Source: Octopus vulgaris (taxonomy: Eukaryota). Taken from it: 64,000 nucleotides of DNA. Numbering within the stretch: position 1 is the first letter of the stretch; every line of letters begins with the position of its first letter. The position numbers and the translations under genes are program-made. Under the pieces are notes generated by a model. The model was given only the letters and a program-made list of their open reading frames with translations. It searched no databases and was not told the DNA's origin. Positions 17,122 to 43,242 of this stretch are shown piece after piece. Location: positions 4,960,001-5,024,000 of the forward strand of contig OX597815.1 in the NCBI GenBank assembly GCA_951406725.2. Reading direction: 5' to 3'.

Positions 17122-17569
17122 TTACTATTTTTAAATTTCACAATGAGAGATATCCAGTAACAATACTTTGGAGTAAAGATTGTTTGCCAACATAACACGG
17201 CAGTCCTGGTTTAGGACGAATGTTGCTGTAATTTAGCCCCAGTAATAGTAATTTTCTAATTTATAGATCAGGGACCAGTTGTCACTTTGAAAACTATATA
17301 TTTCGAATGGGAATTTGGCAGCGCCACCTCTAGCCGAACAATTATTCTGTGCTGAGGAAGGGAAATAACCCGGAAATCGCAATCGGAATAACAATATTAA
17401 CAGATATTGTTTTGAGCTGAGTGGGGGGGTGCTAGATTCCCTTGTTCAAAAATATAAGGACACAGATCATGTCGTAAAGCAGCTGGAGACGATGTCTCCT
17501 GGGGATAAATCACAGCAATACTCGTCCTAAAATAGGACTGCCATGTTATGTTGACAAACAATCTTTACT
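17122..17569 (+). mobile_element. Non-coding Penelope-pLTR-like mini-element with inverted arm and hammerhead motif
   Basis: Left arm is the reverse complement of the right end; HHR core ctgagga..ggg/ccc..gaaa at 17352-17376; 12-bp TSD ctaaaggcaatg / ctaaatgcaatg (17110-17121, 17570-17581). Confidence 0.75.
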
Positions 17570-17719
17570 CTAAATGCAATGGTTCGGAACCCAGCAGAAT
17601 CCTAGCTATTTTTTGATACGTCTTTGATCGTGGGTTCACTGGATTAAGGTTAAGCTGGGGCTAAACAACAGCTGTATTATTGATTTGGTGGTCAATGATG
17701 CATAAATTCTTTTAAAGAG

Positions 17720-19122: not shown

Positions 19123-19320
19123 ATATATATATATATATATGTGTGTGTATATATAATGCGCCTGCGTGGTTGTGGTAAGAAGCTTGCTTCTAAATCACAT
19201 GGTTCCGGGTTCAGTCCTCGGTGCGTGACATCTTTGTTAAGCGTCTTCTACAATAGTAGCCTCGACCTGACCAAAGCCTTCTGAGTGGATTTGGTAGACG
19301 GAAACTGAAAGAAGCCCGTA

Positions 19321-19510
19321 TGTGACCTCGTGTGTACCGTTGGCGATTTTTTTCCCTCTGTCTTCCCTTCTCTGGATCTTTCCTTCTATGTTTCCGACGA
19401 AGAGCTCCGCTCGAAATGTTAAACCTTCCTTCTTTCCTGAGCATCCAATAATACTATATTTGTTCCACGTCCTCGCGTTGTTGTGTTCTTTTGTGCTTTC
19501 TTGTTTGGAT

Positions 19511-19515
<5 letters not shown>
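19321..19515 (+). mobile_element. ~200-bp hammerhead-bearing element (family H1) ending in (TA)n
   Basis: HHR-like gttt-ccgacga-a-gagc tcc gctc-gaaa-tgt-ta-aac at 19390-19424. Homologues with the same ends at 53452-53648 and 60437-60645. Confidence 0.75.
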
Positions 19516-19550
<35 letters not shown>

Positions 19551-19553
<3 letters not shown>

Positions 19554-19777
19554 TAATAGTTATCGCCAAGCTAATATGACAGTCCAGAAATACAGGACGA
19601 ATGCTACCGTTGATTAGCTCCAAGAGACCATCGCCTCTAGCTAGCTATGTGACACACGAACTTATGTGCATTATAAACTTCGAACAGGGGAGGTCAGCCA
19701 CTTCCCCTTGCTGGTCAGGCATCTGCAGACTAGTTTCAGGGTATTTGCCCCTTATCAATGCATAGCCGAACCCAGCA

Positions 19778-19780
<3 letters not shown>
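19551..19780 (-). mobile_element. ~230-bp hammerhead-bearing element flanked by (TA)n
   Basis: Minus strand: tgca-ttgataa-gggg caaata ccct-gaaa-ctag-tc-tgca (19724-19762; degenerate core, palindromic stem III actagt). Homologous to the 17.1/25.1 kb elements. Confidence 0.7.
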
Positions 19781-19827
<47 letters not shown>

Positions 19828-19936
19828 TAAATAAATGGTACAACGAGGTACCGATATTTACTGGAAAATAGCGATCGTAATAAATACAACGTTATCGTAT
19901 AGCTTCACTGAAAAATGAAAAACCTAGAAACGGATA

Positions 19937-20007
19937 ATGCAGGACCGGTTTCAGACTCTTCAAATACGTTTGACAACGTAGATTTGATTTGTCTTCATCA
20001 GCTGCAT
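19937..20007 (-). ncRNA. Type I hammerhead ribozyme with an intact core (in a ~270-bp element next to (TA)n, 19825-20095)
   Basis: AUGCAG-CUGAUGA-AGAC..extended hairpin..GUCU-GAAA-CCGG-UC-CUGCAU: 6-bp stem I, palindromic stem III ACCGGU. Confidence 0.85.
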
Positions 20008-20149
20008 ATACCTAGACAAAATTTCAAATGTTTCCACATCTATGCCAGTACACTCGTCTTAACGCCAAAATGTTAACAGAACGAGAACAGTGAAGAAGTT
20101 TCAATAAAAATAATATGTGTGTGCGTGTGTATTTTCCCCATTTATTTCA

Positions 20150-22997: not shown

Positions 22998-23951
22998 AAG
23001 AAAGAAAAAGCAAAGGACCACTGATGAGGTCACAGAAGTGTGATGAAAGAACTCTGGCCGAAATGCAATTAATATGAAATAAAGCTGAAGCAAATGAACA
23101 GCAACTATATAGTGCGTGTGTTTTCATTGGCTAAACCTGAATGGCTACCCACCATCTTTAGCTAAACAACGGCACCTGAAGAACATCAAGGTCAATAAAC
23201 CCCGGAAGAACCAGCATACTCCCAAGTCCGGCACGTGCTTCCTGAAGCTACCACACTTTGAGGACAGAACAACTGTAGCAATACAACACGCAGTCCGCAG
23301 GGAAGGACTCGACATACAGGTAGTGCACACCGGCCCTTCTTTAAGAAAAGCTCTGTCCAAGAACAACAGTTCTGACTACTCTGAGGAGTGCACATTGTCG
23401 AACTGCCCCATCAATGACCCTGAATTGTGCCAGAGGACCTATGTCGTATATGAGATCATCTGAGGCAAATGTGGCACATCCTACATCGGAAGCACGACAA
23501 GAAAACTGCATGGACGCATTAAGGGACAGATGCAGGCAGACACTTCCGAAGAAGAAACATCTACGGAAATGCCAGACCCGGGAATTCACAGTGCACATCA
23601 GGGCAACACAGCGGAACAGGGGCAACCTTAGAATCTCTCAGGCCATCCTCATGCATCAAAAGAAACCCAAGATCAGCAACAGAAGGGAGTTACAGGAAGC
23701 TAGCTGGTTGCTATAGCAACACCCTTCTGCGCATGTCCACTCCACACTCGCTCACACATATGCACATCGGCAACATTCGTCAATTTCTTGAAAATGGTGT
23801 CATAACCCCGAAATATTGAATACAAGGTAAGTCTACATTAATTCACATATTTGCTTTCTTGTGATTTACCTTGCATTTACTTCGCATTGTTTTGGCCTTA
23901 CCCACGATCTTTTATACAATATATTCTACACAATGCTTCACAGTAATTATT

Positions 23952-23958
<7 letters not shown>
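22998..23958 (+). mobile_element. 5'-truncated Penelope-like element: GIY-YIG endonuclease remnant plus pLTR
   Basis: FLKLPH..CTLSNCPINDPELCQRTYVVYEII*GKCGTSYIGSTTRKLHGRIK (GIY-YIG: VVY..YIG..R). 3' HHR-like cttgaaaa..cccc-gaaa at ~23780-23820; ctgatga..gaaa at 23021-23063; ends in (TA)n. Confidence 0.85.
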
Positions 23959-24013
<55 letters not shown>

Positions 24014-41939: not shown

Positions 41940-43181
41940 TAAGTTATATTAATGTAGGTTCATGCCATCCCCCTATAGTATTCAAAAATTTAGTTAAAAA
42001 TATTAGTAAGAGGATTTCTAGCCTCTCATCTAATGAGGACATCTTCAATAGCGTTGCCCCAGTTTATAATAAAGCTTTAAAAGATAGTGGTTTTAGCGAA
42101 AAAATAAAATATACACCTATCACCAGCCCAACAGTAAGGAAAAGGAATAATAGAAATAGGAAGGTCATCTGGTTTACGCCCCTTACTCACCCGAGGTGGC
42201 CTTCAATATAGGTAAATATTTCCTAGCACTGATAGATAGACATTTTCCAGTTAACCATGCTTATAGGAAACTCTTCAATAGACACAATTTAAAAATTAGT
42301 TTTAGTTCAACTACCAATTTTAAAAACATAATCAATCATAACATACAAAAAACACAAGAAGAAAACAGCTGTTCATGCAGGAATAAAGAAGTGTGCCCGC
42401 TAAATGGAGCTTGCATGTCCAAGACCATCATATATGAAGCTACCGTAAACTCTATAACCACTAAAGACACCGTTTCGACGAAGAAATACGTGGGCCTGAC
42501 AGAGGGTAATTTCAAGGCCAGGTTCAATAACCACACTTTGAGCTTTAGGCACTGGAACAAAAGAAAAGCGACACAATTATCCAATCATATTTGGTCTTTA
42601 AGAGATAAAGGTGTCGATTATAACATACAATGGAAAATTTTGGCCAGATGTAAGCCCTACACTAACGGCAGCGGAAGGTGCGGTTTATGCGACATGGAGA
42701 AATGGCTTATCTGGAAAAGCAGCTTAGACCCTACCACATGTCTAAATACAAGGACAGAGCTTTTCGGATCATGCCCACATGTGACTAAATTTCTGTTACG
42801 TTTTTGGTCCCCTAAAGAAAACGGATAGAACATGCTTTCTGTGTTATGTCCCAAGAAGATTTTATATATTTTTATATATTTTTATATATTTTTATGTATT
42901 TTTATATAATTTTTATGACGAAAAATGCGAGCGATGTATAAGTACGCAGGCAAAGCAGAGTTATAACAGAGTAATTTCCCTTCATTTTTAACGGTATTTT
43001 TTCATAACGTTTTCAAATAGCCAGATAACCGAAGAGATGGTGTTGTGGATTTCCACTTCGGCATCTGAAACTCAGAGTTTTATCTTGACTACAGAGTAAT
43101 GTAACATATTGTATAGATAAATTTCCTCTATTTACATAATATTGAGGTCTCTTTCTTTCTTTTGTTATCTTACCGTTTTAT

Positions 43182-43185
<4 letters not shown>
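41937..43185 (+). mobile_element. 5'-truncated Penelope-like element (RT thumb, GIY-YIG and pLTR) inserted in (TA)n
   Basis: YINVGSCHPPIVFKNL..ISKRISSLSSNEDIF, a frameshift near 42190, then CSCRNKEVCPLNGAC..IIYEATV..KKYVGLTEGNFKARFNNH..CGLCDMEK..LNTRTELFGSCPH. (TA)n on both sides. Confidence 0.9.
43023..43085 (+). ncRNA. Hammerhead ribozyme in the Penelope pLTR
   Basis: AGAUAA-CCGAAGA-GAUG..CAUC-U-GAAA-CUC A GAG-UU-UUAUCU; the core has a U4C variant. Confidence 0.7.

Positions 43186-43242
<57 letters not shown>

What the first reader, a model, noticed from the sequence alone, without database searches (positions are those of the whole stretch)
19563..19710. Covarying stem-loop conserved downstream of the hammerhead in three different element families
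On the HHR strand the three versions read UAGCU AGCU AGAGGC GAUG GUCUCU UGG AGCUA (reverse complement of 19615-19647), UAGCC AGCU GGAGAC GAU GUCUCC UGG GGCUA (25505-25536; also ~17480) and UAGCC AGCU GGAGAA GAUG UUCUCC UGG GGCUA (reverse complement of 60129-60161). Stems show compensatory changes (C-G to U-A, G-C to A-U, C-G to A-U) plus a G-U wobble that only works on this strand. The AGCU/UGG internal loop and the GAU(G) loop are invariant. It is flanked by a GACAC hairpin and, in two families, a GUCC/GGAC hairpin. I do not recognise it as a known Rfam motif. Inference: an uncharacterised structured RNA element (RT-recognition or priming signal, or ribozyme accessory domain).
Basis: partly seen in the sequence, partly recalled or inferred. 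Interest (0 to 1): 0.75.

Follow-up and report, generated by a model that had tools for sequence, protein, structure and literature searches.

The report
Conserved retrozyme hairpin beside copying starts
This RNA hairpin is real and is the best-conserved stretch of a small, protein-free jumping repeat of a known kind (a retrozyme) with thousands of copies in this animal genome; it sits just upstream of the two fixed points where copies end, so it is likely the handle by which a Penelope-type copying enzyme grips the RNA, which is untested.

Summary
The hairpin is real: 6,806 pattern hits against 1 for the control. The three 'families' are lineages of one 350-365-nt hammerhead retrozyme, 42-59% identical and homologous end to end. 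The hairpin is the unit's best-conserved 32-nt window (71% against a 47% mean). Five of its 11 pairs change on both sides, and the AGCU/UGG internal loop is fixed in 9 of 10 subfamilies. Corrections: the loop varies (GAU, GAUG, GGUG); the cited G-U is private to this copy (1 of 40); the motif belongs to a larger covarying domain. Of 141 terminated arms, 125 stop at two sites 3' of the hairpin, and 21 of 28 inverted pairs use one of each: a Penelope footprint. Best reading: a recognition signal for a Penelope-like reverse transcriptase (inferred, about 0.55). No autonomous partner carrying it was found, other hammerhead families here lack it, and expression was not shown. The scan earlier reported similar-sized retrozymes with these insertion marks on other pieces of this genome.

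The parts
19551..19780 (-). 5'-truncated retrozyme arm, lineage A, between TA tracts; ends at end site 1
   Evidence: 92% to monomer L057 over 233 nt; end position
19728..19758 (-). Predicted type I hammerhead core of the A arm: UUGAUAA (U3-A8 variant) ... GAAA ... GUC, palindromic loop 3
   Evidence: sequence; same core in 4 of 5 A monomers apart from single changes
19651..19669 (-). GACAC/GUGUC hairpin 5' of the motif
   Evidence: helix 1, 91% of cells paired; coordinates
19615..19647 (-). The hairpin: 5-bp stem, AGCU/UGG internal loop, 6-bp stem, GAUG loop
19602..19608 (-). 5' strand of the long-range helix that encloses end site 1; its partner lies in the tail, absent from this copy
   Evidence: helix 4: 5 of 9 pairs change on both sides
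19564..19598 (-). Two small hairpins (GUCC/GGAC, variable; GCCA/UGGC, conserved) just 5' of end site 1
25140..25600 (.). Two-armed insertion, lineage B: + arm about 25437-25600 ends at site 1, - arm 25425-25140 ends at site 2; about 13-nt target duplication
25505..25536 (+). Hairpin, lineage B (GAU loop)
25366..25398 (-). Predicted hammerhead core on the - arm of the B insertion
17122..17574 (.). Second two-armed B insertion: + arm with hammerhead core at 17352-17358 and degraded hairpin at 17476-17507; short - arm 17245-17122
60013..60364 (-). Near-full monomer, lineage C, with damaged hammerhead (stem II lost); ends at site 2 in a TA tract
   Evidence: 78% to monomer L092 over 368 columns
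60129..60161 (-). Hairpin, lineage C (GAUG loop)

Best explanation
The hairpin is the best-conserved stretch of a 350-365-nt non-coding hammerhead retrozyme whose copies end at two fixed sites 3' of it, and it is likely the binding site through which a Penelope-like reverse transcriptase/endonuclease protein selects this RNA for copying. Shown: homology of the whole unit across lineages, covariation of the stems, two fixed 3' ends about 62-65 and 105-125 nt past the hairpin, inverted arms that use one end each, target duplications of roughly 10-13 nt, and no ORF. Inferred: tandem transcripts are cut by the hammerhead and may circularise. A Penelope-like protein would bind the hairpin and the adjoining multi-helix junction, cut both strands of AT-rich DNA and start reverse transcription at the two sites, giving the two arms. 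Selection would act only on source copies at this step, which is why subfamily founders covary while inserted copies decay evenly.
For: Best 32-nt window of the unit, 0.71 against a 0.47 mean. Unpaired AGCU/UGG fixed in 9 of 10 subfamily consensuses while 5 of 11 pairs swap, the pattern expected of a protein-read stem-loop. 14 of 30 pairs of the wider domain change on both sides; 2 of 500 shuffles reach this, and slid controls score 0.05-0.12 against 0.26. 125 of 141 terminated arms end at two sites in all three lineages. In a sample chosen without the hairpin, 22 of 30 loci end there and 26 of 30 run through the hairpin. 21 of 28 inverted pairs use one site each. Target duplications in 10 of 18 non-simple pairs against 22 of 243 shuffled pairs. 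In the anole Penelope-like element PAc the RNA needed for insertion lies within +20 to +172 of the ORF, which begins inside the hammerhead; copying starts at two internal sites, both DNA strands are cut and extended, and hammerhead cleavage is dispensable (PMC11167929). Zebrafish L2 proteins read a 3' stem-loop by stem shape plus loop sequence (PMC4176376). Inserted copies decay equally inside and outside the hairpin.
Against: No autonomous element with the hairpin was found: not in two young Penelope-like families, older fragments, 50 loci of a third group, the published octopus Naiad sequences I read, or 30 of 140 hits with a changed flank. 30 other hammerhead loci in this genome lack it apart from one adjacent retrozyme copy, so it is not a general Penelope signal. 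Lineages B-E were found through the hairpin, which inflates its conservation rank; the control sample (22 of 30 with the hairpin, 8 truncated) was almost all lineage B. The 13 hammerhead core positions are as conserved (0.83). Position next to the copy ends does not prove binding. A shuffle test ignores relatedness. No expression, cleavage or binding was shown.
Confidence: 0.55

Rival explanations
1. The hairpin binds a host protein that stabilises, exports or localises the retrozyme RNA, or keeps the hammerhead off in the circle, and has no direct role in reverse transcription.
For: Also predicts fixed unpaired letters and selection only on source copies. Explains its absence from all autonomous elements checked. 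Cervera and de la Pena argue that the hammerhead in animal circles is probably blocked in vivo by something other than self-pairing (PMC7229834 section 17).
Against: Does not explain why the best-conserved domain lies beside the two copy ends, with a covarying helix enclosing site 1. No host motif matched in Rfam.
Confidence: 0.27
2. It is an accessory domain of the hammerhead, or an RNA-RNA dimerisation site through the self-complementary AGCU, that helps the dimer-type ribozyme cut.
For: The hammerheads have short stem III and palindromic loop 3, the form said to work as dimers (PMC4209133). AGCU is a palindrome, extended to 6-10 nt in several lineages.
Against: The longer palindrome is not kept in all subfamilies. 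No covarying partner for the loops was found elsewhere in the unit. The hairpin lies 76-82 nt from the cleavage site, outside the long stem that carries the ribozyme. Predicted dimers are generic hairpin-to-duplex swaps.
Confidence: 0.1
3. It is a DNA-level signal, such as a polymerase III internal promoter or a SINE core, and the stems are incidental.
For: Its 5' strand resembles a tRNA A box one base short (consensus recalled, not from a call).
Against: No A or B box match in 14 monomers on either strand. No tRNA in 8 loci. No Rfam hit on it. Double-sided stem changes require pairing. No match in 4 searchable supplements of a mollusc SINE paper.
Confidence: 0.04
4. It is conserved by shared ancestry and ascertainment alone and has no function.
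For: The lineages are homologous and most were found with the hairpin pattern; single copies fold weakly (z -0.1 to -2.2 for the four ribozyme-strand stretches).
Against: Five pairs swap, some more than once and through intermediates such as A-U, U.U, U-A, in a unit otherwise 42-59% identical. In four other organisms' runs only 2 of 14 listed differences fall in the hairpin and both keep the structure.
Confidence: 0.04

Closest known systems
Metazoan non-LTR retrozymes (PMC7229834; bioRxiv 10.64898/2026.07.22.740005)
   Same: Non-coding tandem units of 350-365 nt with one type I hammerhead each; mussel units are about 350-390 bp; Penelope-like elements proposed as mobiliser and source.
   Different: In the parts I read, neither paper describes a conserved structure outside the ribozyme, fixed 3' ends or a cephalopod family. 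Here no pLTR of origin was found, and RNA, cleavage and circles are unshown.
Poseidon element PAc of the green anole (PMC11167929)
   Same: Two internal start sites with a tail between them, both strands cut and extended, AT-rich targets, required RNA running 3' from the hammerhead region.
   Different: PAc is autonomous and its signal lies in the ORF start, with an AC-rich stem-loop. The tail here is about 46-56 nt against 30-40 nt in PLEs generally. I did not compare sequences.
3'-tail stem-loops of stringent L2 LINEs and their SINEs (ZfL2-1/ZfL2-2, PMC4176376; UnaL2, PMC1636434, listing only)
   Same: Short stem-loop near the point where copying starts, stem exchangeable and unpaired letters specific, used by a non-autonomous passenger.
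   Different: Different retroelement class; there the tail is shared with the autonomous partner and copying starts at the RNA's 3' end. An analogy of function only.
Penelope pLTR hammerheads, including the U3-A8 core variant of Schistosoma Cercyon (PMC4209133)
   Same: Type I ribozyme with weak stem III; the same core covariation occurs in lineage A and subfamily D.
   Different: These units are not attached to an ORF.

Membership tests
Non-LTR retrozyme | Tandem repeats of about 170-400 nt | tested here: met
   14 head-to-tail monomers of 350-365 nt; an array of six at about 361-bp spacing
Non-LTR retrozyme | One type I hammerhead per unit | tested here: met
   Core and stems align in all 14 monomers, some with damaged cores; found by inspection, Rfam did not report them
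Non-LTR retrozyme | No protein coding | tested here: met
   Longest ATG frame 28-73 codons in tripled units, not conserved
Non-LTR retrozyme | Self-cleavage and circular RNA in cells | not testable with these tools
   Only contigs of runs not on record as RNA were available
Penelope-mobilised insertion | Inverted 5'-truncated arm plus a tail at one end only | tested here: met
   21 of 28 pairs use site 1 plus site 2; feature described in PMC8557442
Penelope-mobilised insertion | AT-rich or microsatellite targets | tested here: met
   51 of 141 ends run directly into TA repeats, most others AT-rich by inspection
pLTR of an autonomous Penelope-like element | Attached to an RT plus GIY-YIG ORF | tested here: not met
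   1 of 276 distinct arms has a Penelope-like ORF at its 5' junction, and that ORF copy is broken on both sides
RT-recognition stem-loop (L2 type) | Shared with the autonomous partner | tested here: inconclusive
   Absent from every family reached; 30 recently active Penelope families are reported for O. vulgaris and I saw only a few
RT-recognition stem-loop (L2 type) | Required for protein binding and retrotransposition | not testable with these tools
   Needs binding and insertion assays
tRNA-derived SINE or SINE core | tRNA-like head with A and B boxes | tested here: not met
Described Rfam family | Covariance-model match | tested here: not met
   No match on the hairpin among 148 hits to E 10 in four loci; in the window scan 150 of 230 hits were shown, none on it

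The most novel reading that the evidence does not exclude
The hairpin and the adjoining multi-helix junction are a dedicated loading and start-site module for a Penelope-type, telomerase-related reverse transcriptase. It is kept by a parasite RNA that shares no sequence with its host element's own repeat, so it works by structural mimicry, and it fixes both start sites of the two-armed insertion. It would be the first defined RNA signal for retrozyme mobilisation in animals.
Probability: 0.3. Interest if true: 0.7.

Novelty: new member of a known kind. Interest (0 to 1): 0.4.

Why it matters
How retrozyme RNAs are picked up by Penelope-like proteins is stated as open in the papers read, and the RNA signal of the one Penelope-like element studied in vitro is mapped only to about 150 nt. 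This family offers a 33-nt candidate with natural compensatory variants and two precisely mapped copy ends, so the question becomes testable with a few mutants once the partner is found. The element class itself is known, and the scan has already reported its insertion marks.

Tried and rejected
Partner search, all negative. Covariance model on two young Penelope-like families (the weak hit in L145 is a retrozyme piece inside another element). 3' regions of older fragments, by eye. 50 loci of a third group. 30 Rfam hammerhead loci. A loose pattern excluding the known stem gave noise, 10,293 hits against 7,040 for the control. A changed-flank pattern gave 140 hits; the 30 examined were all retrozymes. 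Naiad supplement: string search, open to misses at line breaks, one apparent chance hit, and part 24 of 59 by eye. One possible chimera with a Penelope-like ORF (L230/L378) was set aside because that ORF copy is broken on both arms. The metagenome pattern scan gave 2 hits in the same apparent protein-coding gene, with no hairpin. Sequencing runs: no RNA holder listed; contigs cannot show strand or expression. No pseudoknot partner for the loops. A 119-bp array lacking the hairpin in its repeats includes target TA and occurs at one locus, so it is not a hairpin-free family. Default RNAalifold missed the inner stem because the 7 lineage-B rows are gapped one column off; the hand-parsed count is. 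The first alignment had one mis-referenced row and was replaced. SECIS, HDV-like ribozyme, 5S rRNA and telomerase RNA resemblances were recalled leads only; Rfam gave no support. The supplement of PMC7229834, which holds the mussel sequences, could not be read, nor file 1 of PMC4758252; the supplements of the bioRxiv paper and of PMC13282606 were not read. Any of these could hold this family or motif.

Full report
Observation. The window lies in a 2.8-Gb animal genome, probably an octopus; that label is inferred from earlier scan notes, not from a call of mine. A pattern fixing only the outer stem and internal loop hits 6,806 places against 1 for the control. A pattern on the neighbouring small hairpin, with no letter of the motif, hits 14,081 against 15.

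What it belongs to. Extending the copies gave head-to-tail monomers of 350-365 nt. Fourteen of them align end to end in three lineages that are 42-59% identical to each other. Each carries one predicted type I hammerhead with a short stem III and palindromic loop 3 at the tip of a long stem; lineage A and subfamily D use a U3-A8 core, a variant described for Schistosoma Penelope-like elements (PMC4209133, part 1 of 4 read). There is no conserved ORF, no A or B box and no tRNA. This is the description of a metazoan non-LTR retrozyme (PMC7229834: abstract, passages, sections 14 and 17 read). The consensus fold favours the ribozyme strand, -98.8 against -72.5; single monomers give z of -1.5 to -7.6, and one of eight folds better on the other strand.

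The hairpin. Clustering 243 copies without using the hairpin gave 10 subfamilies of three or more copies; 47 copies fell in smaller clusters and were left out. Nine consensuses parse as a 5-bp stem, AGCU/UGG, a 6-bp stem and a GAU, GAUG or GGUG loop; the tenth (4 copies) reads AACU. 96 of 99 pair cells are standard and 5 of 11 pairs change on both sides. On 17 real copies, one per subfamily or divergent copy, the wider domain has 14 of 30 pairs with double changes (2 of 500 shuffles; relatedness not controlled) and a score of 0.26 against 0.05-0.12 when partners are slid. Between lineages the hairpin is the best 32-nt window, 0.71 against a mean of 0.47 and 0.62 for the best listed ribozyme window; the 13 ribozyme core positions alone score 0.83. 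This rank is inflated because most lineages were found through the hairpin. In a sample anchored elsewhere, 22 of 30 loci had it and 8 were cut short by 5' truncation, none with a substitute, but nearly all were lineage B. Inside subfamilies, copies diverge as much in the hairpin as beside it, so the constraint acts on source copies, not on the host's inserted DNA. Contigs from runs of four coded organisms hold lineage A; 2 of 14 listed differences fall in the hairpin, one in the loop and one G-C to G-U.

Insertion marks. Of 155 arms, 14 run on into the next unit; of the other 141, 69 end at site 1 (about 62-65 nt past the hairpin), 56 at site 2 (about 46-56 nt further) and 16 elsewhere. A sample chosen with DNA from the far side of the unit gave 22 of 30 at these sites; two of those loci are one insertion. 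Contigs of other runs break off into TA at the same places. Of 30 divergent arm pairs, 2 joined different lineages and were dropped; 21 of the 28 left use one site each, 1 uses site 2 twice and 6 have an unclassed end. Target duplications of 9 or more letters flank 10 of 18 non-simple pairs, against 22 of 243 shuffled pairs. Inverted truncated arms with a tail at one end are the Penelope signature (PMC8557442, passages). In the anole element PAc the tail was traced to two internal start sites of reverse transcription, with both DNA strands cut and extended and ribozyme cleavage dispensable (PMC11167929, parts 1-2 of 4). The two-start-site reading was also in earlier scan notes; I tested the ends myself.

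Mechanism. Shown: structure by covariation, fixed ends, the two-arm rule and target duplications. Inferred: transcription, self-cleavage, circles, and mobilisation by a Penelope-like protein, as proposed for retrozymes (PMC7229834; bioRxiv 10.64898/2026.07.22.740005, parts 1-3 of 5). A non-coding passenger must be selected by the borrowed enzyme, and the best-conserved structure, with fixed unpaired letters, lies just 5' of the start sites. I therefore take it as the likely recognition element (0.55), working like the L2 tail stem-loops (PMC4176376, passages). A host-protein site (0.27), a ribozyme helper or dimer site (0.10), a promoter or SINE core (0.04) and no function (0.04) are the rivals.

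Against. I found no autonomous element with the hairpin. Checked: two young families with long RT and GIY-YIG-type ORFs, older fragments, 50 loci of a third group and published octopus Naiads. The clade names Neptune-like, Nematis-like and Hydra-like that I use for these are recalled labels. Thirty loci matching Rfam's Hammerhead_1 belong to other families and lack the hairpin, apart from one neighbouring copy of this retrozyme. All 30 examined of 140 hits with a changed flank were retrozymes. One of 276 arms abuts a Penelope-like ORF, in a copy broken on both sides. Expression could not be tested.

Novelty. Seven literature searches and Rfam gave no description of this hairpin or of a cephalopod retrozyme. 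A repeat annotation of O. vulgaris has no occurrence of 'ribozyme' or 'retrozyme' in its main text (PMC13282606, passages). Supplements I could not or did not read may hold the family. Verdict: a real, apparently undescribed RNA motif inside a new member of a known class; interest 0.40.

Noticed in passing
L141 (G000:C1:27840000-27849999); L108, L111-L140: Very young Penelope-like family (150 listed hits identical over 200 aa) in 4,271-bp tandems, with a 454-codon upstream frame overlapping a 775-codon RT/GIY-YIG frame in another phase, suggesting a frameshift.
   Followed up: partly
window 41940-43190 (+): Truncated copy of a young, abundant Penelope-like element with its own pLTR; 150 listed hits at 97-100%.
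   Followed up: partly
window 23113-23960 (+): Decayed Penelope-like ORF end and pLTR of a third group; at least three related subgroups in the genome.
   Followed up: partly
L230 / L378 (G000:C10:73237000-73244000): A lineage-A arm joined at its 5' end, through a short duplicated linker, to a same-strand Penelope-like ORF piece; a possible template switch or a nested insertion with deletion.
   Followed up: partly
L292 (G000:C1:11168374-11169265): Seven 119-bp repeats of the retrozyme 3' part plus target TA, behind a two-armed insertion.
   Followed up: partly
L145:6850-7040: An inverted retrozyme fragment inside a different repeat whose start also follows a copy in L193; Helitron-like by recalled resemblance only.
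   Followed up: no
L306-L313, L315-L319, L321-L328: A second abundant hammerhead family with ends about 45 and 160 nt past the ribozyme; it has a short CUC/GAGA hairpin resembling the tail hairpin of this retrozyme, but 5' of the ribozyme. L325 has a Penelope-like ORF piece about 1 kb upstream.
   Followed up: no
window 19830-20010 (-); 19320-19550, 53414-53647, 60436-60667: Other hammerhead-bearing repeats: an intact type I core at 19991-20001, and a three-copy family with a minimal core at about 60512.
   Followed up: no
   Followed up: partly
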